Counted from the stretch's first letter, positions 3,330 to 37,900 are shown. The stretch: 55,608 nt of DNA from Candidatus Wolfebacteria bacterium GW2011_GWE2_44_13 (GCA_001000675.1 LCHW01000001.1:160686-216293), one strand, 5' to 3'. Translations and numbers: made by a program. The notes: generated by a model not told the origin, from the sequence alone.

Positions 3330-3413
3330 GGGTGGGTAGTCCCGTAGGGGCCGGGAGCAGACTGTAAATCTGTCAGGCATGTACTCGCGTGAGTTCGACT
3401 CTCACCTCACCCA
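3330..3413 (+). tRNA. tRNA-Tyr (anticodon GTA), long variable arm
   Basis: Acceptor GGGTGGG/CTCACCC. Anticodon stem CAGAC/GTCTG-like with loop CTGTAAA. T-arm GTGAG-TTCGACT-CTCAC. The layout parallels E. coli tRNA-Tyr. No encoded CCA. Confidence 0.9.
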
Positions 3414-3430
3414 CACTAAGTTCACCCGTC

Positions 3431-3459
3431 TTGCGGATTTCGAATTTGGTGGTTATAAT
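3431..3459 (+). promoter_or_regulatory. sigma70-like promoter upstream of tRNA-Thr
   Basis: TTGCGG (3431-3436), 17-nt spacer, TATAAT (3454-3459). Confidence 0.45.
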
Positions 3460-3485
3460 GCATAAGTTCAATTCGAGTACCTAGC

Positions 3486-3558
3486 GCCGATGTAGCTCAG
3501 TTGGTAGAGCAGCTCCATGGTAAGGAGCAGGTCGAAGGTTCAAATCCTTTCATCGGCT
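3486..3558 (+). tRNA. tRNA-Thr (anticodon GGT)
   Basis: Acceptor GCCGATG/CATCGGC. D-arm TAGCTCAGTTGGTAGAGC. Anticodon loop ATGGTAA. T-loop GGTTCAAATCC. Confidence 0.9.
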
Positions 3559-3576
3559 CATTTTTTTTCAGAATTG

Positions 3577-3649
3577 GCCACCTTAGCTCAGTTGGTAGAG
3601 CAACGGTTTTGTAAACCGTAGGTCCGCGGTCCGAATCCGCGAGGTGGCT
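3577..3649 (+). tRNA. tRNA-Thr (anticodon TGT)
   Basis: Acceptor GCCACCT/AGGTGGC. D-arm TAGCTCAGTTGGTAGAGC. Anticodon stem ACGGT/ACCGT with loop TTTGTAA. T-loop GGTCCGAATCC. Confidence 0.9.
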
Positions 3650-3655
3650 CAAAGG

Positions 3656-3684
3656 TTGCAAAATGTAAAGAACCGTGATATATA
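3656..3684 (+). promoter_or_regulatory. candidate promoter for rpmG
   Basis: TTGCAA (3656-3661), 17-nt spacer, TGaTATATA extended -10 (3676-3684). The predicted +1 is about 3 nt before the rpmG ATG. Confidence 0.4.
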
Positions 3685-3693
3685 ATAAAGACT

Positions 3694-3864
3694 ATGGCGA
3701 AATCAAAGCTGAAAGAACAACTAACCCGACTGCGCTGTGCAACGTGTAAGCACGTTAATTATCACACTCGGAAGAACAAGAAATCTGTTTCCCGCAAGAT
3801 CGAACTGAACAAGTTCTGTGATTGGTGCAGAGTCCACACGACGCACAAGGAAGCAAGAAAATAA
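3694..3864 (+). CDS. rpmG: 50S ribosomal protein L33
   Basis: 56-aa ORF, absent from the ORF track because it is under 60 aa: MAKSKLKEQLTRLRCATCKHVNYHTRKNKKSVSRKIELNKFCDWCRVHTTHKEARK. It has the CxxC...CxxC zinc-ribbon and a basic L33 signature. Its position in a tRNA-Thr/Trp cluster is the classical context. Confidence 0.9.
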   Translation: MAKSKLKEQLTRLRCATCKHVNYHTRKNKKSVSRKIELNKFCDWCRVHTTHKEARK

Positions 3865-3941
3865 GTAAGTTTATTTATTGCATAAACAATGCGCCACAAG
3901 TATACTGTATATGCTTTTGGCGCATTTTTTATAAACATAAC

Positions 3942-4012
3942 GGGGGATTAGTTAAATGGTATAATTTCTCTCTCCAAAAGAGAAGTCGAGGGTCCGATTC
4001 CTTCATCCCCCG
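3942..4012 (+). tRNA. tRNA-Trp (anticodon CCA)
   Basis: Acceptor GGGGGAT/ATCCCCC. Anticodon stem TCTCT/AGAGA with loop CTCCAAA. T-loop GGTCCGATTCC. Confidence 0.9.
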
Positions 4013-4626: not shown

Positions 4627-6642
4627 ATGAACCGAAAAGCCTATACATCTGAAGATTTCGCATGGGTCAACTGGACTCCTGAGATAATCAAACAAAAAAT
4701 AAACGAAGCAATCGAAGCGAAAAAAGTTTGCTATGCAGTCATAAAAGCGATCGCGCCGAGCGAGCGAACATTTACCAATACTGTGTTTGCGATTGAATCA
4801 TCCGAGTACGAACATATCGATGCTATTGCGCAGGTAGAGTTTTTGATGCATGTAAGCCCGTTGGCCGAAGTGCGTGACACTGCGCAAGAAATGGTAGATG
4901 TCTTGCAAAAGGCAATAGTGGATATTGAATATGATCCAGATATGTATCGAGCGATGCAGGAGTATGCGGCCAAGGATGACTTATTGGTGGGAGCTGACAA
5001 GGAACTGTTTGATGACATGATGCGTACATATAAACGTATGGGGTTTGTTCTCGAACCTGAAAAGCAGCAAACACTTAAAGACAATCTTAAAGAAATAGCT
5101 GAGCTTGCGACTGGGTTTGAAAAAGCGATCGCCGATCATCAGGACCATATTGTAGTCCGCAAAGAGGAGTTGCGCGGCTTGCCAGAGGCATATATTAATG
5201 GATTGAAACAAGATGAAGAAGGCAATTATATTGTTACCCTTGCCTATCCCGACTATATTCCTTTTTCCGAACGATGTGATTCTGCACCACGAAGAAAGGA
5301 ACTGATTGATAAGTTTAATCGCCGAGGAGGACCGGCAAATATCGAACGCCTTAAGCGTATTCTTGAGTTGCGGACGGAAAATGCAATGGTATTGGGATAT
5401 CCGAATCACGCTGCCTTTAAGCTGGAAGACCGTATGGCAAAAACAGTGGAAATGGTTACGGAATTTTATAAGGATTTACAGAAAATAGTAACGAACCCAG
5501 CAAAGCTCGATTTGCAGCTGCTCGCTGAAATGAAAAAGAAGGAGCTGGGCGATTCATCTGCGCGTCTTGCGTATTATGATATTGGTTACTATATTCAGCG
5601 CGATAAGATGCAGGGATATGCAGTTGATGATGAAGTGACTCGAGAATATTTTCCACTCGAACGAGTGCTCGATACGATGTTCGATTTGTATGCGTCTGTT
5701 TTAGGGCTGCAATTTGTACGTGAGAACTTCCCTGCATGGCACGAGAGCGTATTGTGGTATCGCGTTGACAATGCTAATGGATCTCTTGTCGGCTATTTTT
5801 CGCTCGACCTGTTTCCTCGGGAAGGGAAGTATGGGCATGCAATGATGCATCCCCATGTCCAAGGACGGCGTGCTTCACGGGAGCTTGATGCGCCGTATGT
5901 AACGCCGACGTGCGGAGTGGTTGCGAATTTCAATCCTTCCTCAGGGACTACGCCTTCGTTGTTAAGTCACAACGAAGTGCAAACGCTATTTCATGAATTC
6001 GGCCATGCTATGCATTCGCTTGTAACAACTGCTGTGCATATGTCACAAGCGGGAACAAATACTGCTCGGGATTTTGTTGAAGCCCCTTCGCAAATGTTTG
6101 AATATTGGGTTTGGGAGCGAGAGATCCTTAAAAAAATGTCAAAGCACTATGTGACTAGCGAGCCATTGCCGGACGAGCTTATTGATCGTATGATTCGTTC
6201 AAAAAATCATGCGCAAGGATATTCTATCTTGCGACAGTTGTTTCTTGGTTCGCTGGATATGACGTTTCATACAGCAACGGAGCCAATTGACCCTGTTGCT
6301 GTGTATGCCGATTTATATAAACAGATGTTTGAGCTTGAACCTGCGCAAGATCAGCTATGGCCTGCTGGTTTTGGGCATTTAATGCACTATGACGCGGGCT
6401 ATTACGGCTATTTATGGTCCGAAGTGTATGCTGCTGATATGTTCGCTCGATTCCGCACAGAGGGTGTTATGAGCCCTACAATCGGCATGGAATATCGTAA
6501 GAAAATTCTCGAAGTTGGTTCAAGCAGGGACGAAATGGAATCAGTAAAGGATTTCCTTGGGCGTATGCCAAATCACAAAGCATTTCTTGCGGATATGGGT
6601 TTAGCGTCTCATGATGAGAAGGGAGGAGAGGCAAGTGAATAA
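4627..6642 (+). CDS. M3-family zinc oligopeptidase (thimet oligopeptidase / Dcp / oligopeptidase A-like)
   Basis: 671-aa ORF with the HEFGH zinc motif (TLFHEFGHAMHS), a downstream glutamate region (FVEAPSQMFEYW), and the GYYGYLWS block typical of M3A. Confidence 0.9.
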   Translation: MNRKAYTSEDFAWVNWTPEIIKQKINEAIEAKKVCYAVIKAIAPSERTFTNTVFAIESSEYEHIDAIAQVEFLMHVSPLAEVRDTAQEMVDVLQKAIVDIEYDPDMYRAMQEYAAKDDLLVGADKELFDDMMRTYKRMGFVLEPEKQQTLKDNLKEIAELATGFEKAIADHQDHIVVRKEELRGLPEAYINGLKQDEEGNYIVTLAYPDYIPFSERCDSAPRRKELIDKFNRRGGPANIERLKRILELRTENAMVLGYPNHAAFKLEDRMAKTVEMVTEFYKDLQKIVTNPAKLDLQLLAEMKKKELGDSSARLAYYDIGYYIQRDKMQGYAVDDEVTREYFPLERVLDTMFDLYASVLGLQFVRENFPAWHESVLWYRVDNANGSLVGYFSLDLFPREGKYGHAMMHPHVQGRRASRELDAPYVTPTCGVVANFNPSSGTTPSLLSHNEVQTLFHEFGHAMHSLVTTAVHMSQAGTNTARDFVEAPSQMFEYWVWEREILKKMSKHYVTSEPLPDELIDRMIRSKNHAQGYSILRQLFLGSLDMTFHTATEPIDPVAVYADLYKQMFELEPAQDQLWPAGFGHLMHYDAGYYGYLWSEVYAADMFARFRTEGVMSPTIGMEYRKKILEVGSSRDEMESVKDFLGRMPNHKAFLADMGLASHDEKGGEASE

Positions 6643-6705: not shown

Positions 6706-8430
6706 ATGGCATCCCTTAAATATATTTTTGTAACAGGAGGAGTAATGTCGGGAGTTGGCAAGGGCGTTGCTGCTGCATCCATTGCAAAGATTCTTCAAGC
6801 GAAGGGCTTTTCTGTCACCGCTATCAAGATTGACCCGTATGTAAACGTAGACGCGGGGACAATGAACCCCACCGAGCATGGTGAGGTTTTTGTTTTGGAT
6901 GACGGCATGGAGTGCGATCAAGACATGGGGAACTATGAGCGCTTTTTGAATAGAAGTCTCTCAAGTGCCAACTATATGACTACAGGAAGTGTATACTTGT
7001 CGCTTATCAATAGAGAGCGTAGTTTGGAATTTGAAGGAAAATGCGTTGAAGTTGTGCCGCATGTGCCGCTTGAAGTTATTGATCGTATTAATACGGCTGC
7101 GAAAAAAGAAAAAGCAGATATTGTTATTATTGAAGTGGGTGGAACGGTTGGAGAATATCAGAATGTATTGTTTCTCGAAGCAGTGCGTATGATTAAAGCA
7201 AAGCGTCCCGAAGATGTTGCATTGGTATTAGTAAGCTATCTACCGCAACAAGGAGCTGAAGGTGAATTAAAGACAAAGCCAACGCAGTACGCAGTGCGCA
7301 CGCTTAACTCTGCGGGGTTGCAGCCGGATGTTATTTTGGCACGTGCAGGTATTGCGCTTGATAAACCGCGAAAAGAAAAGATTGCATTTAATTGTAATCT
7401 TGATAATGAAGCTGTCATATCTGCGCCTGATGTAAAAAGCATTTATGATGTGCCTTTGAATTTTGAACATGATAACTTGAGCGGCATCTTAATGAAGCGC
7501 TTAAAGTTGAAGCCTAAGAAGCATGACTTGAAAGAGTGGAAAGCGTTTGTTGCAAAAACACATGCCGTTTCTAAGCCAGTGAAAGTTGGCATTGTAGGGA
7601 AGTATTTTGCAAGCGGAGAGTTTGTTCTTGCCGATTCATATATTTCTGTTATTGAAGCGGTAAAACATGCTGCCTATGCAGCGGGGCGCATTCCAGAAAT
7701 TACATGGCTGAATGCAGGAGATTTTGATCCGTTAGGCGTAGGAACGAAAGCGGCAAAAGATAATTTAAAATTATTAAAACGGTACGACGGTATTATCGTA
7801 CCAGGAGGTTTTGGAAATAGAGGTGTTGAGGGAAAGATTTCCGTGATTGGTTATTTACGCGAACATAAAATTCCATTCTTTGGATTGTGCTATGGTATGC
7901 AGTTGGCGACGATAGAATTTGCACGAAATGTTGCAGGTCTGAAAGGCGCACATACAACCGAAGTAGATAAAAAGGCTGTGCATCCCGTTATCGATATTCT
8001 ACCGGAACAGCGTCAAAAAATGGCTCAGAAAGATTATGGTGCAACTATGCGACTTGGAGCGTATCCTGCGGTTGTGGATAAAGGAACACATGCATATGCG
8101 GCGTACAAAGGGAGCCACTTCCAAACCGAGGGAACGAAGCGCAGGAAGGAGCAGAAGTTACAAATACCCGCTGATGAACTTATCGTGTTTGAGCGGCATC
8201 GACATCGATATGAGGTTAACCCCGTATATGTTGAGAAGCTTATCGATAAAGGGCTTGTGTTCTCGGGTATGTCACCCGATCGACGCTTAATGGAAATTGT
8301 TGAATTGCCGAAAGCAAAACATCCATTTTTCGTTGCGGCTCAGTTTCATCCTGAATTTACCGCGCGTCCGTTGGCACCCCATCCATTGTTTGTTGCTTTT
8401 GTAAAAGCAGCAATTGCGAAAAAGAAATAA
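6706..8430 (+). CDS. pyrG: CTP synthase
   Basis: 574-aa ORF. N-terminus KYIFVTGGVMSGVGKG, glutamine amidotransferase GLCYGMQ, and ERHRHRYEVN. Confidence 0.95.
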   Translation: MASLKYIFVTGGVMSGVGKGVAAASIAKILQAKGFSVTAIKIDPYVNVDAGTMNPTEHGEVFVLDDGMECDQDMGNYERFLNRSLSSANYMTTGSVYLSLINRERSLEFEGKCVEVVPHVPLEVIDRINTAAKKEKADIVIIEVGGTVGEYQNVLFLEAVRMIKAKRPEDVALVLVSYLPQQGAEGELKTKPTQYAVRTLNSAGLQPDVILARAGIALDKPRKEKIAFNCNLDNEAVISAPDVKSIYDVPLNFEHDNLSGILMKRLKLKPKKHDLKEWKAFVAKTHAVSKPVKVGIVGKYFASGEFVLADSYISVIEAVKHAAYAAGRIPEITWLNAGDFDPLGVGTKAAKDNLKLLKRYDGIIVPGGFGNRGVEGKISVIGYLREHKIPFFGLCYGMQLATIEFARNVAGLKGAHTTEVDKKAVHPVIDILPEQRQKMAQKDYGATMRLGAYPAVVDKGTHAYAAYKGSHFQTEGTKRRKEQKLQIPADELIVFERHRHRYEVNPVYVEKLIDKGLVFSGMSPDRRLMEIVELPKAKHPFFVAAQFHPEFTARPLAPHPLFVAFVKAAIAKKK

Positions 8431-8465
8431 AAAAGCGCCCACCGGAAAATCTGGTGGGCGTTTGC
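8431..8465. terminator. shared terminator for convergent genes
   Basis: CGCCCACCGG / CTGGTGGGCG stem with one G-U pair. The U-run is stronger when read on the minus strand (GCGCTTTTTT). Confidence 0.7.
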
Positions 8466-8481
8466 TGTTGCGGGGCAGCAC

Positions 8482-9075
8482 TTACGAGCTGAGAATCAGG
8501 TCGAACGTTAGCTTGCCGTCTCGTTTGTCTCTTGCGCGCTCGACAATGGCTATCTCCTTGAATTCTGATAGCTTGTGGCGGGAGACTTCTGTCCAGTCAA
8601 AGTTGCCGCCATGACTCCTTGTTGTCATTGCCAGTAAGTTCGAGAAGCGTTGTCCAGGCTCCCCAAGGTAATCGCCTGTACGCGCCATATCGCTTCCGGC
8701 TCTGGAGCAAGCTTCACTTAGCGCACGCTCGATGGGGTCTTTTTTATGCGGCCCCACATTTCGTTCAACGATAATCTCATCGTCAACGCCGAATTGCATG
8801 CGCACGCGACACATACCTTCGGGCGTTTTGTTTTCGAGCGGGTTGTCTGCAAACTTGGACATGCACCCGCTTTCACCGACGTATGCCCGCACTCCTGCGA
8901 TGTGCTGGACTTCGTTGATCGTAACAGTTCTGAGCAGGGGGTTTTGTAGTGCGGAAAGCACTATGTCGGGCAGTAAATGCTTCTCCCCTGTATTCGCTAA
9001 TTCCGCGAGCGTTCTCGACGCTTGCATTGATAGCAGCCATTTCTTAAGTCCTTCTTCCGACGGCTCTATGCCCAT
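8482..9075 (-). CDS. hypothetical protein, no motif recognised
   Basis: 197-aa ORF with SD AGGAAAGGA upstream. It appears more GC-rich than its neighbours. It is convergent with pyrG and divergent from the Cys-rich sORF. Confidence 0.6.
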   Translation of the reverse strand: MGIEPSEEGLKKWLLSMQASRTLAELANTGEKHLLPDIVLSALQNPLLRTVTINEVQHIAGVRAYVGESGCMSKFADNPLENKTPEGMCRVRMQFGVDDEIIVERNVGPHKKDPIERALSEACSRAGSDMARTGDYLGEPGQRFSNLLAMTTRSHGGNFDWTEVSRHKLSEFKEIAIVERARDKRDGKLTFDLILSS

Positions 9076-9160
9076 GCCCGTATTCCTTTCCTGAGGTTGT
9101 TAATGTAGGTTGCTAATTCGATACTAGTACACCTGGACAATATTGTAAAGTAATGGTGTA

Positions 9161-9189
9161 TTGACTTGCGAGGACAGGAGAAGTATAGT
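9161..9189 (+). promoter_or_regulatory. near-consensus sigma70 promoter for the Cys-rich sORF
   Basis: TTGACT (9161-9166), 17-nt spacer, TATAGT (9184-9189). Confidence 0.55.
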
Positions 9190-9232
9190 TTCTTCAGCTC
9201 GTATCCTATTTGGGAAAGAAAGGAAAAAGACT

Positions 9233-9289
9233 ATGTTTTGCATCGAAATGTGTGACCCCTGCACTGGTTGTGGGGCGTGCGGTAAGTAG
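9233..9289 (+). CDS. 18-codon cysteine-rich small ORF (MFCIEMCDPCTGCGACGK)
   Basis: ATG 9233, TAG 9287-9289. AGGA lies 9 nt upstream. 5 of 18 codons are Cys, with spacing C-x3-C-x2-C-x2-C-x2-C. It is bracketed by a promoter (9161-9189) and a hairpin plus U-run (9312-9338). Confidence 0.4.
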   Translation: MFCIEMCDPCTGCGACGK

Positions 9290-9311
9290 GTGCCGCCTTT
9301 CTGTTTACGAA

Positions 9312-9338
9312 CCCCCGGTTTATCCGGGGCTTTTTCTT
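9312..9338 (+). terminator. terminator/attenuator hairpin between the sORF and the cysteine desulfurase
   Basis: CCCCGG (9313-9318) pairs with CCGGGG (9324-9329), followed by CTTTTTCTT. Confidence 0.5.
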
Positions 9339-9380
9339 ACCTTGACCTTTTGTACTATAATGGCTATATAACACATACAT

Positions 9381-10625
9381 ATGCAGCGTATTTATTTGGA
9401 CAATGCGGCGACTACACCGCTCGATAAGGAAGTGAAACAGGCTATGGAGCCTTATTTTGGTGATACCTATGGAAATCCAAGTTCGTTGCATTGGTTTGGA
9501 CAGCAGGCACGTGCAGCAGTTGATGCATCGCGAGAAACGATTGCTAATGCAATCGGTGCACAATTCCGAGAGGTTGTCTTTACCGGTTCTGCGACCGAGG
9601 CAAATAATCTGGCGCTTCGTGGAGCGATACAACATGCACGGGACATCTTTACTTCATTGCACGATGGGCTTCCGATGAAGATAATTATTTCTACTATTGA
9701 ACATGATTCAATTTTAGACACGGCACGCGAGTTGGAAAAAGAAGGGGTTGAGGTGGCTCGCATTCCGGTTGCTACAGATGGTACTGTTGATGTGCAACAA
9801 ATAGAAGCCGCGCTCGATGAACGGACAGTATTGGTTTCGATTATGTATGCGAATAATGAAATTGGAACAATACAGCCGATTAAAGAAATCGCGAATAGTA
9901 TTAAAAGATTTCGAGCACGTGAGAATGCATTGCCGTACTATCCGTTGTTTCATACGGATGCGGTGCAGGCATTTCAATTTTTAGATTGTGCTGTTGATGC
10001 ACTGGGCGTTGATTTGATGACACTCTCGGCGCATAAACTATATGGACCTAAGGGGGTTGGTGCATTGTATGTACGCACTATGAATAGTGTAGCGCATACA
10101 CAAGGAGATCGTACGAGTATAATTCGTCCCCGCGTTTCTGGTGGTGGGCAAGAATTTGGAATGCGTTCGGGCACAGAAAATGTTGCCGCGATTGCGGGCT
10201 TTGCGAAAGCAGTTACCTTAATCGCTGAACGTAAAGAAAGTGAATACGAACGATTGCAATTATTGCGCGAACGTTTGTGGAACGGAATTCAGGATGTATG
10301 TCCAAAAGCGATCGTAAATGGAAAGGAAATGGATTCCCGCGTTCGCGGGAATGACAAACCCACGCTTCCGAATATCCTCAACGTATATTTTCCTGAGCGA
10401 AAAGGAGGAGACTTGCTTATTGCATTTGATATGCATGGGATTGCGGTTTCGAGTGGTTCGGCTTGCGCAGCATTTTCCGCAAAGCCATCCCATGTGCTTG
10501 TGGCGCTTGGGTTTGATGATGGCCGGGCTGGGGGAAGCTTACGCTTTAGTATGGGGCGACATACAACGGAGGACGAAATTGATGGGGCTATCGATGCATT
10601 GCGATTAGTTCTGACGGCGCAATAA
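9381..10625 (+). CDS. cysteine desulfurase (class V aminotransferase, IscS/NifS type)
   Basis: 414-aa ORF. IYLDNAATTP N-terminus, PLP-lysine block SAHKLYGPKG, and catalytic loop SSGSACAA. Confidence 0.9.
   Translation: MQRIYLDNAATTPLDKEVKQAMEPYFGDTYGNPSSLHWFGQQARAAVDASRETIANAIGAQFREVVFTGSATEANNLALRGAIQHARDIFTSLHDGLPMKIIISTIEHDSILDTARELEKEGVEVARIPVATDGTVDVQQIEAALDERTVLVSIMYANNEIGTIQPIKEIANSIKRFRARENALPYYPLFHTDAVQAFQFLDCAVDALGVDLMTLSAHKLYGPKGVGALYVRTMNSVAHTQGDRTSIIRPRVSGGGQEFGMRSGTENVAAIAGFAKAVTLIAERKESEYERLQLLRERLWNGIQDVCPKAIVNGKEMDSRVRGNDKPTLPNILNVYFPERKGGDLLIAFDMHGIAVSSGSACAAFSAKPSHVLVALGFDDGRAGGSLRFSMGRHTTEDEIDGAIDALRLVLTAQ
10331..10356 (+). repeat. GGATTCCCGCG..CGCGGGAATGACA palindromic repeat inserted in frame in the cysteine desulfurase CDS
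   Basis: It is the reverse-complement form of the GTCATTCCCGCG...GGAATCC unit also seen at 49581-49642 and 54176-54200. It is translated as DSRVRGNDK. Confidence 0.75.
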
Positions 10626-10682
10626 ACTTGTCGTCTTGCGATTCCGTGTAATCAGTGGTATGTTTGCGAAGCTGTTTTTGGC

Positions 10683-10703
10683 ATAGCACTGATGTGCTAT
10701 AGT
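10683..10703 (+). promoter_or_regulatory. inverted repeat overlapping an extended -10 upstream of clpB (candidate operator)
   Basis: ATAGCAC-TGAT-GTGCTAT (10683-10700) overlaps TGcTATAGT (10695-10703). Confidence 0.35.
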
Positions 10704-10745
10704 ATAGATATACCTAATAACACTCTATTGATATTTTTGTTTTAA

Positions 10746-13409
10746 ATGAATAATTTCAACCGATTTACAATTAAGGCACAGGAAGCGCTGCAAAACGCAC
10801 AAGAGCTCGCCGCACGAGGAAATCACGGCGAATTAAAGGCGTTGCATTTGTTGGTTGCATTGGTCAGTGATGAAAGTACGCTTGTGCGTCCATTGCTTGC
10901 AAAAGCGGGGGTCAGTGCAGACGAAATACATTCTTCAGCTACTGAGCAACTATTGAATGAACCAAAAAGCGCCGGAAGCGTTAGCTTGTCGCAACTCTAT
11001 TTATCTCAGGAATTAATGAACATTCTTGATAAAGCAGGGAAAATTGCACAGCACCAGAAAGACGAATATATTTCGTGTGAGCATTTATTGCTCGCCATTC
11101 TTGAGGCGGGCTCTTCGAAGGCTTCGCGTATTCTTGTTGAGCTTGGCTTAAAGCGCGATGCGGCAATCCGTATCTTGGCGCAGCTTCGTGGTTCATCGCG
11201 GGTTACGGACGAAACGCCAGAAACGAAATTTCAGGTGCTTGAAAAATATGGCATCAACCTTACGGACATGGCGCGCGATGGCAAGCTGGATCCGGTTATT
11301 GGGCGTGATGAAGAATTGCGTCGCGTGATGCAGGTATTAAGTCGTCGCACGAAAAATAATCCTGTTTTGATTGGTGAACCAGGTGTTGGAAAGACGGCGG
11401 TTGTTGAAGGGCTTGCACAGCGAATTGTTTCGGGTGATGTGCCGGAGCCATTAAAGGATAAGGAAATAATTATGCTTGACCTTGGTTCTTTGATTGCGGG
11501 GACAAAATTCCGTGGTGAATTTGAAGACCGCCTTAAAGCCTTTATGCGCGAGGTGCAGAATTCTGCCGGACGCATTATTTTATTTATTGATGAAATCCAC
11601 ATGATCGTCGGTGCGGGTGCCGCAGAGGGCGCTATTGATGCATCGAATTTATTGAAACCGCCACTAGCACGCGGTGAGTTGCATGCCATTGGTGCAACGA
11701 CAATTAGTGAGTATCAAAAGCATATCGAAAAGGACATGGCGCTTGAACGCCGCTTCCAGCCGATTATGGTGGAAGAGCCTTCTATTGACGATAGCATCAC
11801 TATTCTTCGTGGGTTGAAAGGAAAATATGAATTGCATCATGGTATTCGCATTAGCGATGAAGCCATCGTGTCTGCGGTGAATTTGTCCGCGCGATATTTA
11901 ACGGATCGTTTCTTGCCGGATAAAGCAATCGACTTAATCGATGAAGCAGCTGCAGCGCGTAGACTTGAATCGGAAAGCTTGCCATCTGAAATTGATAAAG
12001 TACGACACGAAATTATTAAGTTGGAGATTGAAAAATCTGCGCTTTCTTCAGAGACTGCGGAAAAGGCAAAAGATCGTCTTAAGGCAATTGAAAAGGAACT
12101 TAACGCGTTTAAAGATCGCAATGATGAATTATCTGCAAAGTGGCATGCCGAGAAACTTACCTTCGAAGAATTCCATAATCTAAAAAAGAAAATCGAAGAC
12201 TTAAAGCGACAAGCAGAACTTGCAGAGCGTGAAGGGTCACTTGATAAGGTTGCGAAAATTTTGTACGGCGAATTACCACAGGCAGAAAAAGATCTTAAGG
12301 TTTTTGAAAAGAAGTTTATTGATGGCGGCTTAACAAAAGGCAAAAAGAAAATAGGGGATGAGAAATTTATCAAAGAAGCAATCGACGAACACGACGTTGC
12401 GGCTGTTGTTTCCAAGTGGACACATATCCCCGTTACAAAGATGATTGAGTCTGAAGCGAATAAGCTTTCGACGATTGAGGACCAGCTTCGTGCGCGCGTT
12501 GTTGGGCAGGAGGATGCGGTTAAGGCCATTGCCAATGCCCTTAGGCGTGCCCGTACGGGCCTTTCAGACGAGAAACGACCCTTTGGTTCTTTTATGTTTC
12601 TTGGACCTACGGGGGTTGGAAAGACGGAGCTTGCGAAAGCACTCGCCGAAATTATGTTCAATGATGAAAAGGCATTGATTCGCGTGGATATGTCTGAATA
12701 TATGGAACGACATTCCGTCTCTCGATTGATTGGCTCTCCTCCGGGATACGTCGGACACGAAGAGGGGGGTAAGCTGACGGAAGCGATGCGTCATCGTCCA
12801 TACAGTTTAATTTTGTTTGATGAAATTGAAAAAGCGCATCCTGATGTATTTAACATTTTGTTGCAGGTGCTTGATAACGGACGATTGACCGATAGCAAAG
12901 GAAAGAGTGTGAACTTTAGAAACTCGATCATCATTCTTACTTCAAACGTGGGTAGTGAATTCTTCCACGAAATGTCTAAGCTTGGCTTTGAGACAACGAA
13001 GGAAGAGGATATTAGTGGGCAACAGGAAGAACTTTTCAAGGAGCGCGTCAATGCCTCATTGAAAGAGACATTCCGCCCTGAGTTCTTGAATCGATTGGAT
13101 GAGATTATCGTATTCAATCCACTAACACCGAAAGAGATTGAGCAGATTATCGAGATTCAGATTAACGAAGTATTGCAACGGCTTGCCTTGCGCAACATGA
13201 ACGTTACGATAGATGCTTCTGTGAAGAAGTATATCGCTGAACATGGATTTAACCCTGACTATGGCGCACGTCCTATTAAGCGATTGATCCAAAAAACTAT
13301 CTTAGATCAGTTAGCAGACAGAATCATTAAAGGTGAATTCAACAATGTTAAAAAGATTAAAATCAGCTTTAAAGATCAGCATCTCAACATCGTTTCCACT
13401 CGCGCTTAA
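10746..13409 (+). CDS. clpB: ATP-dependent chaperone ClpB
   Basis: 887-aa ORF with a Clp N-domain, two Walker A sites ([16 protein letters not shown]), a long middle coiled-coil, and [10 protein letters not shown] near the C-terminus. Confidence 0.95.
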
Positions 13410-31858: not shown

Positions 31859-31910
31859 ATTAGTATGTGTGAATTCGTTTTTATGACTAGTTGGTATGTG
31901 TAGTGCTATT

Positions 31911-31919
31911 TGGTATCAT
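31911..31919 (+). promoter_or_regulatory. extended -10 placed for a leaderless glucan-synthase mRNA
   Basis: TGgTATCAT, 6 nt (GGTTCT), then ATG at 31926. Confidence 0.45.
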
Positions 31920-31925
31920 GGTTCT

Positions 31926-34900
31926 ATGAGCGGCAAGCGTATTGAACAATCACAGCTTCGCACGATCGATCGGTTAGCTAAAGAACTTTCATCAGTTACG
32001 CAACTTTCGTTCGATGGGCGAACGGCGCATGCCTTTTCTCGAGACGCAAAAGCGACCATCATCCGCATTCGGGCGATGTATCGATCGTTGACGGATAATT
32101 TTTCAAAAAATATTTATTTTACCCAGAGTATCGAATTGCTCCTGGATAATTTTCCGTACGTTATTGATAGCGCACTTACCGAGTTGCTTGAGCGATGGCA
32201 AGATCGCGAGACGATGCATATTCCACAAATGGTTGATCGCAATGGTAAAAAACGGCCGCGTGCATATTTGATTGCACACGCGCTGACGAGTGCTACCGAT
32301 GCAAATATTAATCGCGAATCCGTGCTTGCGTTTCTTGATAGTTATCAGCGAATGGCCCCGCTTTCTATTCGTGAACTCGATATTTTCCCGGACATGTTGC
32401 GATTTGTTCTGCTCGAAGAGACGCTACGAGTTATGCAAGCGACTCTTGATGCGTATCAGGAAATTGCTAATGCGGAAAAGTGGTTTATTCGTGTACTTAA
32501 TGCGGTGGATCGGCGGGAAAGTGATGAGCGGCTTACGCAACTCACAATCATGCTCGCGAAACAGTACACCGTTATCCCATTACATTTCAGCTTTCATTTA
32601 TTGCAACGTATCTCCCAGTCTGGCAAAGAAAAGGAGTTGCGTATTATGAGTAAGTGGCTCAAGTTAACGCTTGCGCGGCGTGGGTTTGGATATGCACGTC
32701 TCTCAAACTTAATTGTCCGCACTGATCGTGAACAGGCAGCTACGTTTAGCGCCGCTATTAATGCATTGCGTTGGCTCGCACAGATGCGATGGGATCGAGT
32801 CTCCGCGCCATTGAATGTTGTCGACGCAGTGTTGCGCCGTGACCCTGCGGAATGTTTTGAGCAGTTGTCTGATGAAACACTTGGACAGTATCGACGAGCC
32901 GTTGTGCGTATTGCTGGTAAAACGGGCGTGCATGATGTTGAAGTTGCTCGAGAAGCAGTGCGTTTTGCACGGCTCGCACAGGAGGATAGCGGGCAGCCAA
33001 AGCGACAATCCCATGTTGGGTATTTTCTTATTGACGAAGGCGTTATGGCGCTTGAACGAGCATTCGGATATCGTCCTACGATACGGGAACGGTTGCGGCG
33101 GTTCGTTCGTGCGCATGCGACACAGTTGTATTTAGGAGGGATTGCGTTCGTTACTGCATTGGTTGTATGTATTGTATTCCTATTGGGCGGAGGAGCGAGA
33201 ACACCGTGGTTCGTAGATCTACTATTATTCCTTGCAACAGTAGTGCTTGCTTCGGAAGTGGGGAGTGTGTGTATGCACTATCTTGCGGTACGTCTCTTGG
33301 AGCCGCGTGTACTTCCTTGTCTTAATCTTGAATCAGGCGTTGGGCCCGATCGACGAACACTGGTTGTTATGCCATCGATGTTGCGCAATTCGGAGTCAAC
33401 GCAACGGTTATTACGGAGACTTGAAACTAATTGTATCGCCAATGTCGATCCTGATGTGTTTTTTGTTGCGTTAATGGATTTTCGCGATTCGGTTGAAGAA
33501 TTTTCGGAGACAGACACAGCACTGGTTGCTGAATTTGCAGCGGGCATTGAGGAACTTAATGCGCGATACCCGTCCACCATTCCGCGTTTCGCGCTGTTTC
33601 ATCGCTATCGCAAATGGAATGTGGCGGAAAAAGTTTATATGGGGTGGGAGCGCAAGCGAGGGAAGCTGCGCGAGTTTAACGAGCTGTTGCGCGGAAAAGA
33701 AACGTCGTACGTGGAGGGGTCGCTTGAACGAGCAGCCCAGTTTGGCCATGTGCAGTATATTGTGACAATCGATGAAGATACCGAGCTCGTGCGTGATAGT
33801 GCAAGTATACTTATTGGTACAATCGACCATCCGTTGAATCGTCCGGTTATCGATCCTGATCGACGCGTGGTTACTCAGGGATATGGCATTATCGAACCAC
33901 GCCTTGCTGTGCGATTTAGCGAAGGAACCTCGTCGCTGTTTGCGCGTCTTTTTGGCGGTTTTCCAGGCATTGAAGCTTATTCGTCCTTCATATCCGACTT
34001 ACATCAAGACCTATTTGGCGAAGGTATTTTTCATGGAAAAGGAATCTATGATATCGACGCTGTTGAAGCGACGATGCGCGATCGTATTCCGGAGAACACG
34101 ATATTAAGCCATGACTTATTAGAGGGGCTCTATGCACGGGTTGGTCTTGCAAGCGGCGCACATATTCTTGAAGGGTTTCCTCAGGGCTACCATGAATATA
34201 TGAAGCGTGCTCATCGGTGGACGCGCGGCGATTGGCAAATCGCGCAGTGGGCGTTCACGCGCCGTGGTTGTGTATTTTCTGCAATTGGACGATGGAAGAT
34301 TTTTGATAATTTGCGCAGAAATATGCTTCCTATCGCACTTGTCGCTGTAGTTATGGCGACGCTGTTTTCTCACGCAGATGTATTTATATGGAGTGTTGTT
34401 GCACTCGGTTCACTTGGGTTTGGACAATTATTTCCGGCGTTAATTCATGCAATCATAACGGCAACTTCGCTTGATCGACGAACTGGTTTGTATTATCGGT
34501 TGCGAATCACGGGGGCTGCAATTGGTGTCGCGTTCATTAAGACGATCTTGTTGGGCGTATTTGCTTTGCACGCAACAGTTATTACACTCGACGCAATCAC
34601 GCGGAGTATGTGGCGTTTATTCATTTCGAAACGTAAATTGCTTGAGTGGCAGACGGCTTATGAAACTGCTGCTCGAGCACGAAAAGGTATTATGCATTTT
34701 ATTGGGTTTATGTGGCGCAGCACCACCATTTCATTTGTATTAATGATGCTCGTATTGTTTGCTCCGCATCCTGTGCTTGAACCGGTTACGTTGCTCTGGG
34801 CGATTGCGTGGCTTTCTGCACCTTTTGTTGCTCGCTTGATGAGCTACCGATTTATTCGATCAACTCGATTGCGTGCAAGCGATGCGCAGTACTTACGGGC

Positions 34901-37900
34901 CATCGCGGCGCGAACCTATTGGTTTTTTTCCGATATGGCGACAAAGGAAAGCCAATGGCTTATGCCCGATCATTTTCAGGAAGAACCGGTTGCAAAGCGG
35001 CATATGTTTGGACTTGGGCTATCGCCGACAAATCTTGGTATGTACCTGCTCTCCCTTTCGGCTGGACGCGCGATGGGGTTCGTCGATATGAAACGTTATG
35101 CGGAGCGCATTGAGAATGCATTTCGTAGTATTGATCGTCTTGAACGATACAGGGGGCATTTTTTCAATTGGTATGAACTGAAAGGACTTTCCGCGTTGCG
35201 ACCAAAGTACGTTTCTAGTGTTGATAGCGCTAATCTTGCGTTGTCGCTTGTTGCGTTGCGCGGTGCTATTGGGGAGGCGCTTCGTGCCCCGCTTGTTTCG
35301 ATCGAAATGATTACAGGAGCTGATGCTAGCCTCGCGGTTCTTTTTGATGCGTGCCAACAGGCCCTGCGTGTAAACGGTCTTGATATTGAAGATAAGAATA
35401 TGATATTGGCAATCCGTACTACTACTGTCGAAGCGCGTGCAACACTTGCACGCACAGGCGCATTTCCATTGACCGTACAACTATGCGAAAAGACGCTCGC
35501 TACTGTATCGAGAGAGCTTTCTTCTGTTGGGAGTATGGTGGATACGCTTCACACACGCGGAAGAGGTGATGTGTACGGTGATGTTTTTTTTGCTGCGCGC
35601 CATAGTATGGAATCTATTATTGCAATGCATGATGCTGTTGAGCTCTATTGTGGCTATATGGTAGCCCCTGTGATTTCTTGCGTTGATTCAATCCCTTCAT
35701 TACGTGTTCCGTACGCACAGTTATTGGAAGCGATTGCTCATATTCCAACTATTCAAACATTGTCAGATGGCACAATACGCGAACAGCTTGATCGTATTGG
35801 ATTTGCGAAAATACTTACTACTGTTGATGCGTCTACTAAAGATATTGCATTGGTGTATGCGTGGCATAATGAATTTTTGGCTCGACTTGCGCGATCTGAA
35901 GAGGCTGCACGCACAGTACAGCGACAACTCTCTGTGGCAAAACGCTTAGCTGATGGGTATGTCGATACGATGGACTTCACGTTTTTGTATGATGCTGAGC
36001 GAGGATTATTTCATAGTGGATTTAACGCTACAACCGAACATCTTGATGATGCATTTTACGACCTCCTGGCATCGGAGGCGAACTCGGCGAGTATTTTTGG
36101 TATTGCAAAGCGCGCTGTACCAGCACGTCACTGGACGTACCTTGGACGGAAGTTAATCAAAGGAAGGGGCGGTAAGGCACTGGTTGCTTCGTGGGCAGGT
36201 TCGTTATTTGAGTATCTTGGCACATTGATTTATTTCGACGTTCCCCGTAAAAGTTTTTGGGGCATTTCTGCGCGTCGTGCAATCGATTCGCATCGGCGTT
36301 TTGCACACCGGTTTGGTATTCCGTGGGGAATGGGCGAGTCGGCTTCTGCGGATCTCGATATCGAGCATAACTATCATTACCAGGCATTTGGCGATCCATC
36401 GCTTGGGTACAAACGGGGACTATCTGAATTTGCTGTGGTTGCGCCTTATGCGACAGCGCTCGCACTTCCGTTTAATCCTTCGCTTGCGATTAATAATTTT
36501 CGTGCATTGATGCGTGCAGGTGCATTTGGAGGATATGGATTTTATGACGCGATTGATTATACCGGCATCGAAAAAAATAAGCGTATGCACGGGCGACCGG
36601 CGCGTATCTATTTCGCACATCACCAAGGGTTTATTTTAACGTCGATTGCTAACGCATTGATGAATGGGTGGGTTCGTCGTTTGGTTGCGGAAGATCCTGC
36701 TATGGTAGTTGCGACGCAACTGTTTGAAGAAAAGATGCCGGATGTTCCTACAGTGGAGCCGGTTTCAGCTGTTGCCCCTGCTGTTGAGCGCGTCTCTCTT
36801 CGGTCAGTAGAACAAGATGCACCGCGGCGGTATATTCCTGTGCGCACAAAGGAGGCACAGCTTCGTGTATTATCTAACGGCTCATATCACGTTTCTATTA
36901 CGAGCACTGGTGCGGGTAGTAGTCGATATGATAATTTGCGCATCACCGAGAAATGCGACAACATGCTCGAAGAATCGCAGGGAACATTCTTTTACCTTTT
37001 CGATAAAAAGCGAAACGCATTGTGGTCTCCAACATTTATGCCAACGAAGACGCCTGGTGCGCGTAGTAATGTTTCTGTGGGCGAAGAAGTTATTTCGTTC
37101 GAAAAAATATATGAAGGAATTACGAGCCGCATGACGGTTGCCGTTGACCCTCATTCTCCGGTCGAAGTGCGTGAACTTTCTTTACTAAATCGGCGTACCG
37201 AACCAGTAACGCTTACGATTGGTGTGTGTGCTGACATTGCACTTTCTCGCGGAAGTGCAGAAGCGGCTCATCCAAATTATGAGCGATTATTTATTGCGTC
37301 AACGACGGCATTTGATGGAGCGGCTTCCTTGTTTTCTCGCCCCGATCCTCGTGATCGCGAAAAAACGGTTAGTGCTGGAGCTATGATTGTGTCTTCGGAT
37401 TCGATTAGCGAGCTTGCGGCAGTGCGAGGCCGAGAAGTATTTTTCGGATCCCCTATGTACAAACGCGAGCCTGCAATTATGCGTGATCCGTCCCGCGCAG
37501 CCACTGAACTTCCCCAGTATACACTCGACAGTGCAGCTGGGTTCGTATGGACAATGACTATTAAGCCAGGGGAGACACAAAACGTTGCGTTTGTTCTTGC
37601 AGCCGGAGATTCCAATACGTCTGTAGAGCACACGCTCGAGCCCTTTCGCTCATATTCGGCGATTGAACGACTCATACACAATGCGGATAAGGCGGGAGGG
37701 TATCTACTCGATTCTCTTGCGATTTCCTCTTCGCAAGCTGAAACATTTTCTGCACTCGCATCGTTGTTAAGTGTCCGTTCTCGGTATACGAGTACAGTTG
37801 AGGCTCCAGAGATACCTGCAATTGGCTCGGTGTGGAAGTGTGGCATTTCTGGAACGCGTCCTATTTTTGTGCTTGCGGTATCTGCGGTTACCCATCTCTC

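What the first reader, a model, noticed from the sequence alone, without database searches (positions are those of the whole stretch)
9161..9338. Stand-alone 18-codon, 5-cysteine small ORF with promoter, SD and terminator just upstream of the cysteine desulfurase
A near-consensus promoter (TTGACT-17-TATAGT) and an AGGA ribosome-binding site precede the ORF MFCIEMCDPCTGCGACGK at 9233-9289. Its Cys spacing is C-x3-C-x2-C-x2-C-x2-C. A GC hairpin plus U-run lies at 9312-9338, 43 nt before the cysteine desulfurase ATG.

No other + strand gene lies upstream that could need this terminator, so the unit looks like a real transcript. Three readings are possible:
1. A Cys-codon-rich leader peptide giving cysteine-responsive attenuation. 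Polycysteine uORF attenuators are described in mycobacteria. The downstream enzyme here consumes cysteine, so the logic would have to be inverted.
2. A metal- or Fe-S-binding micropeptide working with the desulfurase. The first three Cys match the Cx3Cx2C spacing.
3. A small Cys-rich RiPP-like precursor.

I could not find a convincing antiterminator by eye.
Basis: partly seen in the sequence, partly recalled or inferred. Interest (0 to 1): 0.7.

Follow-up and report, generated by a model that had tools for sequence, protein, structure and literature searches.

The report
Conserved four-cysteine micropeptide gene in Wolfebacteria
The 18-codon cysteine-rich ORF is a real, conserved gene of its own in a small group of uncultured groundwater bacteria, not a cysteine-sensing leader; its invariant core resembles the shortest synthetic peptides that hold an iron-sulfur cluster, so it may be the smallest natural metal-cluster protein, but this is untested.

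Summary
Promoter, SD, ORF MFCIEMCDPCTGCGACGK and terminator are at the stated coordinates. The window is from a Candidatus Wolfebacteria genome (CPR, Rifle groundwater).

Five other lineages, with 67-93% identical desulfurase, carry the same sORF of 18-39 codons. The N-terminus varies; the core CDPCT(G/N)CG(G/A)C is invariant. In the 10 core codons all 10 third positions vary but only 3 of 20 first or second positions do (Fisher p ~1e-5). That indicates selection on the peptide.

Each copy has a strong SD and a terminator. Five of six have their own TTGAC(T/G)-17-TATAnT promoter.

The attenuator reading is not supported:
- The desulfurase has its own conserved promoter (TTGACC-17-TATATA) ending 6-10 nt before an SD-less ATG, also in relatives without the sORF.
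- No antiterminator is conserved.
- In one lineage two genes separate the sORF from the desulfurase. In another it is the last gene of an operon.

No RiPP enzymes are nearby. No Pfam, NCBIfam or protein-database match exists. The only weak sequence resemblance is to the D-x-C-x-x-C-G-x-C cluster motif of clostridial ferredoxins. The window peptide shares the Cys spacing of a synthetic [4Fe-4S] maquette.

Best reading, inferred only: a stand-alone metal- or Fe-S-binding micropeptide.

The parts
9161..9189 (+). Promoter of the sORF: TTGACT (9161-9166), 17 nt, TATAGT (9184-9189)
   Evidence: One search gives 10 of 12 matches. The same -35 and -10 pair (TTGAC[TG]-17-TATAGT, TATAAT or TATATT) stands before the sORF in L092, L096, L098 and L148, although their upstream neighbours differ.
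9220..9224 (+). Shine-Dalgarno AAGGA, 8 nt before the ATG
   Evidence: All six lineages have AAGGA(G) or GGAGG 4-8 nt before the sORF ATG.
9233..9289 (+). sORF of 18 codons plus stop: MFCIEMCDPCTGCGACGK
   Evidence: Orthologues: L087 3848-3904, L092 3844-3906, L096 1283-1345, L098 2975-3094, L148 2813-2887, plus strain variants L109 and L115.
9251..9280 (+). Conserved core of 10 codons, CDPCTGCGAC (family: C-D-P-C-T-[GN]-C-G-[GAR]-C)
   Evidence: All 10 third positions vary; 3 of 20 first or second positions vary; Fisher p = 9.5e-6. Pairwise, 69 synonymous against 10 non-synonymous codon differences. The weak PDB hits align this core with D-x-C-x-x-C-G-x-C of 2[4Fe-4S] ferredoxins.
9313..9338 (+). 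Intrinsic terminator of the sORF unit: CCCCGG-TTTAT-CCGGGG plus CTTTTTCTT
   Evidence: hairpin alone is -11.5 kcal/mol. A terminator is present after the sORF in all six lineages, with different stem and loop sequences.
9342..9370 (+). The desulfurase's own promoter-like element: TTGACC (9342-9347), 17 nt, TATATA (9365-9370), with an embedded TATAAT at 9356-9361. It is not part of the sORF unit but decides the attenuator question.
   Evidence: Conserved in window, L087, L092, L148, L096, L098 and in the sORF-less L001. The -10 ends 6-10 nt before the ATG and there is no SD.
9381..10625 (+). NifS/IscS-type (class V aminotransferase) cysteine desulfurase, the downstream neighbour
   Evidence: Pfam Aminotran_5 at 1.2e-70. 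Best NCBIfam hits are NifS and IscS, below their equivalog cut-offs.
8482..9075 (-). Divergent neighbour: a 197-aa lineage-specific protein of unknown function
   Evidence: No Pfam, NCBIfam or PDB match. Homologues of 32-55% identity in L087, L098 and L093, and a gene in the same position in L148. It is present with and without the sORF.

Best explanation
The sORF is an independent, probably well-expressed micro-gene with its own promoter, SD and terminator. It encodes an 18-24-residue peptide (39 residues in one lineage). The functional part is the invariant four-cysteine core C-D-P-C-T-G-C-G-G-C near the C-terminus.

The most likely mechanism is that the four thiolates, spaced C-x2-C-x2-C-x2-C, ligate a metal centre. 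The preferred candidate is an iron-sulfur cluster, held in the manner of the C-x-x-C-G-x-C motif of bacterial ferredoxins and of synthetic [4Fe-4S] peptide maquettes. The peptide could act as a monomer or as a cluster-bridged dimer. It would then serve as a tiny cluster or metal carrier.

Its persistent position beside a NifS/IscS-type cysteine desulfurase, which in this clade has no adjacent IscU scaffold gene, suggests a link to sulfur and Fe-S trafficking. It does not prove one.

Shown: the gene is real, conserved, under peptide-level selection and transcriptionally insulated from the desulfurase.
Inferred: translation, metal or Fe-S binding, and any partnership with the desulfurase.
For: Gene reality:
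- Six lineages carry the sORF with an invariant core.
- Every third codon position varies, but only 3 of 20 first or second positions do.
- The SD and terminator are conserved in all six. An own promoter is conserved in five.
- In the L098, L109 and L115 population the tail after the core is polymorphic and includes a premature stop, while the core is kept.

Metal or Fe-S reading:
- There are four invariant Cys in 10 residues, and G14 is invariant, giving C-x-x-C-G-x-C preceded by D-x.
- The only PDB similarities (E 0.1-1.2, not significant) are to exactly this motif in clostridial 2[4Fe-4S] ferredoxins. The only Pfam trace is Fer4_2 at E 0.4.
- The synthetic 16-mer KLCEGGCIACGACGGW and the 11-mer CGGGCGGCGGC assemble [4Fe-4S] clusters (PMC10946529).
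- The window peptide has Cys at 3, 7, 10 and 13, the same Cx3Cx2Cx2C spacing, and shares CGACG with the 16-mer.

Context:
- The sORF is directly upstream of the desulfurase in 5 of 6 lineages, despite heavy rearrangement of everything further upstream.
- An iscU gene follows the desulfurase in most other loci, including other Patescibacteria, but in none of this clade.
Against: - There is no experimental or expression evidence.
- The ferredoxin similarity is statistically insignificant and is expected for any Cys/Gly-rich string.
- The paper read states that Cys spacing is critical for maquette cluster formation. Five of six family members lack the Cx3C step and have only C-x2-C-x2-C-x2-C, which has not been tested.
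- Adjacency to the desulfurase could be inherited synteny within a narrow clade (at least 67% identity).
- At least five related lineages (L001/L091, L093/L094, L095, L147, L149) have the desulfurase without a nearby sORF, so the enzyme does not need the peptide in cis.
- The whole genomes could not be searched for iscU, nifU or suf genes, or for distant sORF copies.
Confidence: 0.45

Rival explanations
1. Cysteine-responsive leader peptide. Ribosome speed over the Cys codons would decide whether the terminator at 9313-9338 forms, and so whether transcription reads into the desulfurase.
For: The sORF has 4-5 Cys codons. A terminator follows it and the desulfurase is next in 5 of 6 lineages. 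Polycysteine sORF attenuators exist in mycobacteria (10.1101/834739).
Against: - The desulfurase has its own conserved TTGACC-17-TATATA promoter after the terminator, also in the sORF-less L001.
- The desulfurase ATG has no SD, so read-through RNA would be poorly translated (inference).
- In truncated-RNA folds the 5' arm of the terminator has no conserved alternative partner.
- The RNAalifold covariation term is about zero apart from the terminator.
- The Cys codons are never consecutive.
- The non-Cys residues D, P, T and G are equally invariant.
- In L096 the sORF is followed by other genes. In L087 it is the last cistron after murD-like and a 110-aa gene.
- The regulatory logic would be inverted for an enzyme that consumes cysteine.
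Confidence: 0.04
2. Metallothionein-like buffer for soft metals (Cu(I), Zn, Cd) rather than Fe-S. This would be a thiolate-cluster peptide protecting a groundwater bacterium from metal stress.
For: The composition is rich in Cys and Gly and ends in C-G-x-C-(G)-K. From my own knowledge, this resembles 25-residue fungal Cu-metallothioneins such as ...CSGCGK. The source is a metal-contaminated aquifer (Rifle records).
Against: Four Cys give little capacity. No metal-resistance genes are adjacent. No match to any metallothionein family in Pfam or NCBIfam. The strictly conserved D-P, T-G and G spacing is unusual for metallothioneins, which tolerate spacer variation (own knowledge).
Confidence: 0.15
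3. Precursor of a modified peptide (RiPP), for example thiazole or thioether formation on the Cys-Gly core. The variable N-terminus would act as a short leader.
For: The layout is a variable N-terminus plus an invariant Cys/Gly/Thr core at the C-terminus. The core resembles Gly-Cys-rich azole peptides (own knowledge).
Against: The leader would be only 6-11 residues. No radical-SAM, YcaO, lanthionine synthetase, protease or exporter gene was found in the 55-kb window or in any related locus. No hit to SCIFF or other precursor models in NCBIfam.
Confidence: 0.1
4. Thiol or persulfide carrier, or a redox peptide. It would accept sulfane sulfur from the desulfurase, like a miniature SufE, TusA or SufU acceptor, or act as a low-molecular-weight dithiol buffer, without a bound metal.
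For: It is adjacent to the desulfurase, and no iscU is adjacent in this clade. It contains several CxxC pairs.
Against: There is no similarity to known acceptors. Adjacency may be only synteny. Several relatives lack the sORF at the locus.
Confidence: 0.1

Closest known systems
Synthetic ferredoxin maquettes (FdM1 Ac-KLCEGGCIACGACGGW-NH2; Mq3 CGGGCGGCGGC) and the C-x-x-C-G-x-C motif of bacterial 2[4Fe-4S] ferredoxins
   Same: The length is similar (11-16 against 18-24 residues). There are four Cys with Gly-rich spacers. The window copy has the identical Cx3Cx2Cx2C spacing and the CGACG string. The family core has D-x-C-x-x-C-G-x-C as in clostridial ferredoxins.
   Different: The sORF peptide is natural and genetically encoded. 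Most family members have C-x2-C-x2-C-x2-C, with the fourth ligand at -3 rather than -4 or distal. They lack the x3-C-P continuation and the ferredoxin fold. Cluster binding is untested.
Mycobacterial polycysteine leaderless sORF attenuators (Canestrari et al., bioRxiv 10.1101/834739)
   Same: Both are short Cys-rich ORFs upstream of a cysteine-related gene.
   Different: The sORF here is SD-led rather than leaderless. Its Cys codons are spaced rather than consecutive. The downstream gene has its own promoter and no RBS to sequester. The peptide sequence itself is conserved, and the downstream enzyme consumes cysteine.
Small metallothioneins (for example 25-residue fungal Cu-MTs; bacterial SmtA/BmtA, MymT). 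This comparison is from my own knowledge.
   Same: Both are very small and rich in Cys and Gly, with a C-x-x-C-G-K-like C-terminus.
   Different: The sORF peptide has only 4-5 Cys. No family model matched. Its spacers are strictly conserved.
SCIFF/ranthipeptide and other Cys-rich RiPP precursors
   Same: Both are short Cys-rich ORFs with a conserved C-terminal core.
   Different: There is no neighbouring radical-SAM maturase, no NCBIfam hit, and a much shorter leader.

Membership tests
Leader-peptide transcription attenuator (trpL/hisL type) | Mutually exclusive terminator and antiterminator structures coupled to the sORF | tested here: not met
   Truncated-RNA folds show no conserved partner for the 5' arm of the terminator. 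RNAalifold finds only the terminator and a codon-driven hairpin, with a covariation term of -0.16.
Leader-peptide transcription attenuator (trpL/hisL type) | The regulated gene depends on read-through from the leader promoter | tested here: not met
   A conserved TTGACC-17-TATATA element lies between the terminator and the desulfurase ATG, also in the sORF-less L001. In L096 two other genes intervene. Promoter activity itself was not measured.
Mycobacterial polycysteine LL-sORF attenuators | Leaderless sORF with at least 2 consecutive Cys codons | tested here: not met
   The sORF has a 37-nt predicted leader and an SD. No two Cys codons are adjacent in any of the six lineages. The criteria are taken from 10.1101/834739.
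Mycobacterial polycysteine LL-sORF attenuators | An RNA duplex sequesters the RBS of the downstream gene | tested here: not met
   The desulfurase has no SD to sequester.
Bacterial-type ferredoxin (Pfam Fer4 families) | Significant match to a Fer4 model, with C-x2-C-x2-C-x3-C-P | tested here: not met
   Only Fer4_2 at E 0.4, 11 bits against a cut-off of 24.5. PDB ferredoxin hits have E 0.1-1.2. There is no x3-C-P. The peptide resembles the motif but is not a family member.
Bacterial-type ferredoxin (Pfam Fer4 families) | Binds a [4Fe-4S] cluster | not testable with these tools
   This needs anaerobic reconstitution, UV-vis and EPR.
Metallothionein | Match to a metallothionein family model; several metal-thiolate clusters | tested here: not met
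   No Pfam or NCBIfam hit. Metal binding is not testable here.
RiPP precursor (SCIFF/ranthipeptide, TOMM, lanthipeptide) | A cognate maturase (radical SAM, YcaO, LanM or similar) is encoded nearby | tested here: not met
   None was found among the ORFs of the 55-kb window or in the related loci. The rest of the genomes was not searched.
Bona fide protein-coding small gene | Purifying selection at the amino-acid level, with conserved translation signals across lineages | tested here: met
   10 of 10 third positions vary against 3 of 20 first or second positions, p = 9.5e-6. An SD lies 4-8 nt upstream in all six lineages.

The most novel reading that the evidence does not exclude
The peptide is a naturally encoded 'ferredoxin maquette'. 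An 18-24-residue, four-cysteine peptide would assemble a [4Fe-4S] or [2Fe-2S] cluster, alone or as a dimer, using sulfur from the neighbouring cysteine desulfurase. It would serve as the cluster scaffold or carrier in Wolfebacteria, whose desulfurase lacks an adjacent IscU. That would make it the smallest genetically encoded Fe-S protein and a living analogue of the short Cys peptides proposed for early Fe-S biochemistry.
Probability: 0.12. Interest if true: 0.9.

Novelty: new variant of a known kind. Interest (0 to 1): 0.6.

Why it matters
Genes this short are invisible to gene callers. None of the source records calls it, and an alignment of the peptides found nothing among 5.8 billion predicted proteins.

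This one shows clear peptide-level selection in ultra-small CPR genomes, where every retained gene is informative. If it binds an Fe-S cluster or a metal, it would sit at or below the size of the smallest known natural metalloproteins. It would also link origin-of-life maquette chemistry to an extant organism.

The hypothesis can be tested directly with synthetic peptide, without culturing the organism.

The analysis also corrects a tempting but wrong regulatory reading, and it suggests that the desulfurase is expressed from a leaderless mRNA.

Tried and rejected
- Rfam, at gathering thresholds on the whole window and at permissive thresholds on 9050-9420: tRNAs elsewhere only, and chance-level hits at the locus.
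- Folding of 9196-9345: z-score -1.09, not unusually structured.
- Scan of 80 GTDB loci that encode desulfurase relatives, looking for Cys-rich sORFs within 700 nt upstream: none outside the close clade.
- Word-index protein search with the 197-aa neighbour: it found only itself. Local blastp later found 32-55% homologues.
- AlphaFold2 of the 197-aa protein without an alignment: pLDDT 38, unusable, so no fold search was run. The PDB sequence search was empty.
An alignment headed by the 42-codon extended frame gave no hit.
- Degenerate DNA pattern for CDPCTxCGxC:
  - In JGI metagenomes there were 48 stretches. Only L109 and L115 belong to the family. The rest are DeoC N-terminal extensions, P-x-C repeat frames and chance matches.
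  - In IMG/VR there were 5 stretches, all unrelated repeat frames.
- Literature searches for Cys-rich small proteins beside cysteine desulfurases, or for Fe-S assembly in Patescibacteria: nothing relevant.
- The same-population contigs L081-L086 are 100% identical across the intergenic region and add nothing.

Full report
**1. What is in the sequence**

- Promoter: TTGACT at 9161-9166, a 17-nt spacer, then TATAGT at 9184-9189. This is the best-scoring promoter-like site in 8400-10800.
- SD: AAGGA at 9220-9224.
- ORF: 9233-9289, encoding MFCIEMCDPCTGCGACGK.
- Terminator: a six-G:C-pair hairpin at 9313-9329, followed by CTTTTTCTT.
- Desulfurase: ATG at 9381.

Neighbouring genes:
- M3 peptidase, 4627-6642, + strand.
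- pyrG, 6706-8430, + strand.
- A 197-aa protein of unknown function, 8482-9075, minus strand, divergent from the sORF.
- The sORF.
- A NifS/IscS-type cysteine desulfurase, 9381-10625.
- clpB, 10746-13409.

The closest desulfurases are from Candidatus Wolfebacteria (Parcubacteria, CPR). Identical contigs come from Rifle groundwater metagenomes.

Cys-richness alone is not remarkable. In the window, 3 of 319 ATG-started ORFs of 15-25 codons have five Cys.

**2. The sORF is conserved**

I fetched loci around desulfurases of graded similarity. Five further lineages carry an orthologous sORF.

| Locus | Desulfurase identity | Peptide |
|---|---|---|
| window | - | MFCIEMCDPCTGCGACGK |
| L087 (GW2011_GWC2_39_22) | 93% | MERAIWSCDPCTNCGGCK |
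| L092 | 75% | MEKISWYMLCDPCTGCGGCK |
| L148 | 69% | MELIFSADQTLCDPCTGCGGCGSK |
| L096 | 69% | MQRATDSSVCDPCTGCGGCG |
| L098 | 67% | MRHDSSYSLCDPCTGCGGCGSGGSRPGSSWVVYPTDSCI |

L109 and L115 are strain variants of L098.

The N-terminus varies in length and sequence. The core C-D-P-C-T-(G/N)-C-G-(G/A)-C is invariant at eight of ten positions.

At the DNA level, every one of the ten third-codon positions varies among lineages. Only 3 of 20 first or second positions vary (Fisher p = 9.5e-6). Pairwise there are 69 synonymous and 10 non-synonymous codon differences.

Selection therefore acts on the amino-acid sequence, including the non-Cys residues D, P, T and G. It does not act on an RNA structure or merely on Cys codon content.

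In the L098, L109 and L115 population the tail beyond CGSGGSR is polymorphic and includes a premature stop. The core is kept apart from a single G-to-R change in L115.

All six lineages have a strong SD 4-8 nt before the ATG and an intrinsic terminator after the sORF, with different stems and loops.

Five have their own TTGAC(T/G)-17-TATA(G/A/T)T promoter, even though the DNA further upstream is unrelated. In L087 the sORF instead follows a murD-like gene and a 110-aa gene as the last cistron.

The multiple alignment shows three conserved islands: the promoter, the core and the desulfurase promoter. Unconserved UTR and spacer lie between them.

**3. It is not an attenuator of the desulfurase**

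- *Separate promoter.* Between the terminator and the desulfurase ATG lies cTTGACC-17-TATATA. It is conserved in all six sORF lineages and in L001, which has no sORF.
- *No SD on the desulfurase.* The -10 ends 6-10 nt before the ATG and no SD is present. The desulfurase is probably made from a leaderless or near-leaderless mRNA (inference). A read-through transcript would carry an internal, SD-less AUG.
- *Insulation is general.* In every clade member shown except L001, the DNA just upstream of the desulfurase promoter carries a terminator-like hairpin and T-run, whatever gene lies upstream (by eye, not scanned).
- *No antiterminator.* When each RNA is folded without the 3' arm of the terminator, the 5' arm has no conserved alternative partner.
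- *No covariation.* RNAalifold finds only the terminator and a hairpin produced by Cys and Gly codon complementarity. The covariation term is -0.16 kcal/mol. The region folds no better than shuffles (z = -1.09). Rfam has nothing.
- *Variable position.* In L096 the sORF lies 1.7 kb upstream of the desulfurase. It has its own terminator, and two other genes with their own promoter follow it.
- *Known criteria not met.* The mycobacterial polycysteine attenuators are leaderless, have consecutive Cys codons and rely on an RBS-sequestering duplex (10.1101/834739). None of these holds here.

**4. What the peptide could be**

No Pfam or NCBIfam family matches. A peptide alignment found nothing among 5.8 billion predicted proteins. 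Gene callers do not call the sORF in any source record. In L098 an over-extended desulfurase call masks it.

A degenerate DNA pattern for the core found only the L098-type variants in JGI metagenomes and nothing related in IMG/VR. The family therefore looks confined to one Wolfebacteria subclade.

No RiPP maturase, exporter or protease gene is present in the 55-kb window or in the related loci.

The only sequence resemblances are weak. They are Fer4_2 at E 0.4 and, in the PDB, three clostridial 2[4Fe-4S] ferredoxins at E 0.1-1.2. Their cluster motif D-x-C-x-x-C-G-x-C aligns with D-P-C-T-G-C-G-G-C. These values are not significant and count only as a lead.

Independently, synthetic ferredoxin maquettes of 11-16 residues assemble [4Fe-4S] clusters: Ac-KLCEGGCIACGACGGW-NH2 and CGGGCGGCGGC (PMC10946529). 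The window peptide has Cys at positions 3, 7, 10 and 13, the same Cx3Cx2Cx2C spacing, and shares the string CGACG.

The other family members lack the first Cys and carry C-x2-C-x2-C-x2-C. That spacing has not been tested, and the same paper stresses that spacing matters.

**5. Context**

The sORF is immediately upstream of the desulfurase in five of six lineages, although the DNA further upstream is heavily rearranged. pyrG, the 197-aa family, a murD-like gene with a 110/128-aa gene, and hydrolase-like and secreted 202/205-aa genes come and go.

Several relatives of 69-76% identity (L001/L091, L093/L094, L095, L147, L149) have the desulfurase without a nearby sORF.

These include Woese-, Uhr-, Magasanik-, Staskawicz- and Moranii-bacteria. 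None is found in the Wolfebacteria clade, where clpB follows. I could not examine the rest of these genomes.

**6. Verdict**

This is a real, unannotated, conserved micro-gene.
- Attenuator reading: rejected, about 4%.
- Best-supported mechanism: a stand-alone four-cysteine peptide that ligates a metal centre, most plausibly an Fe-S cluster, and possibly linked to the neighbouring desulfurase. I put this at about 45%. It rests on motif logic and context, not on measurement.
- Still open: metallothionein-like metal buffering (about 15%), a RiPP precursor (about 10%) and a persulfide or redox carrier (about 10%).

The most novel reading not excluded is a natural ferredoxin-maquette peptide acting as an Fe-S scaffold or carrier. 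I give it about 12%.

I rate the finding a new variant of a known kind, namely tiny Cys-rich metal-binding proteins, with no detectable homology to any of them. It is of moderate to high interest because it can be tested directly with synthetic peptide.

Noticed in passing
window 9342-9383; also L001 3962-4003, L087, L092, L096, L098, L148: The desulfurase ATG has no Shine-Dalgarno. A conserved TTGACC-17-TATATA element, with an embedded TATAAT, ends 6-10 nt before the ATG. This suggests a leaderless or near-leaderless mRNA in these Wolfebacteria, whereas neighbouring genes use strong SDs.
   Followed up: partly
window 8482-9075 (-): The 197-aa protein looked like an ORFan in the word-index search, which found only itself. 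It in fact belongs to a fast-evolving clade-specific family, with 55%, 37% and 32% identity to genes in L087, L098 and L093. It has conserved NPLLR, DNPLEN and FDLxLSS motifs. There is no Pfam, NCBIfam or PDB match, and the single-sequence AlphaFold model has pLDDT 38.
   Followed up: partly
window 10626-13409 and loci L001, L087-L098, L147-L149 versus L006-L080: In this Wolfebacteria clade the NifS/IscS-type desulfurase is followed by clpB and has no adjacent iscU or nifU. In most other fetched loci, including other Patescibacteria, an IscU homologue lies directly downstream.
   Followed up: partly
L098 3030-3094; L109 9020-9046; L115 6080-6145 (-): Strain variants of one population differ in the C-terminal tail of the long (39-aa) form of the peptide. 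One has a premature TGA that gives a 26-aa product, and one has a G-to-R change inside the core. The tail seems dispensable.
   Followed up: partly
L098 3001-4380; also P0003, P0006, P0008, P0009: Automated gene calls extend the desulfurase N-terminus upstream, giving 447-485 aa against 414. In L098 the extension runs over the sORF and hides it from annotation.
   Followed up: no
L101, L121, L123, L127, L130, L136, L138, L140, L141: Deoxyribose-phosphate aldolase (DeoC-like) proteins in JGI metagenomes carry an N-terminal extension with the near-identical motif CDPCTACGLCVEK. I recognised the aldolase by eye from MIDHTLLKP...GADFVKTSTGF and did not check it against Pfam. The role of the motif is unknown.
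   Followed up: no
L001 3680-3847 (-), L091 3760-3927 (-), L098 24-218 (-): A small Lys/Thr-rich gene of 55-64 aa (…TNGECTRIQHTNNRTGK…) takes the place of the sORF upstream of the desulfurase in L001 and L091. It occurs elsewhere in L098. Gene callers called the wrong strand in L091.
   Followed up: no
L087 2002-3832; L096 1-1181: A murD-like Mur ligase gene and a conserved 110/128-aa gene of unknown function (55% identity between the two lineages) directly precede the sORF in two lineages. Both are absent from the 55-kb window.
   Followed up: partly
window 31896-40694 (+): A 2932-aa protein with GH94 supersandwich and catalytic domains plus a glucoamylase-like domain. That is very large for a genome of roughly 0.6 Mb.
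   Followed up: no
window 3330-4012: A cluster of four tRNA genes. The first (3330-3413, 84 nt) scores only 35 bits against Rfam tRNA.
   Followed up: no
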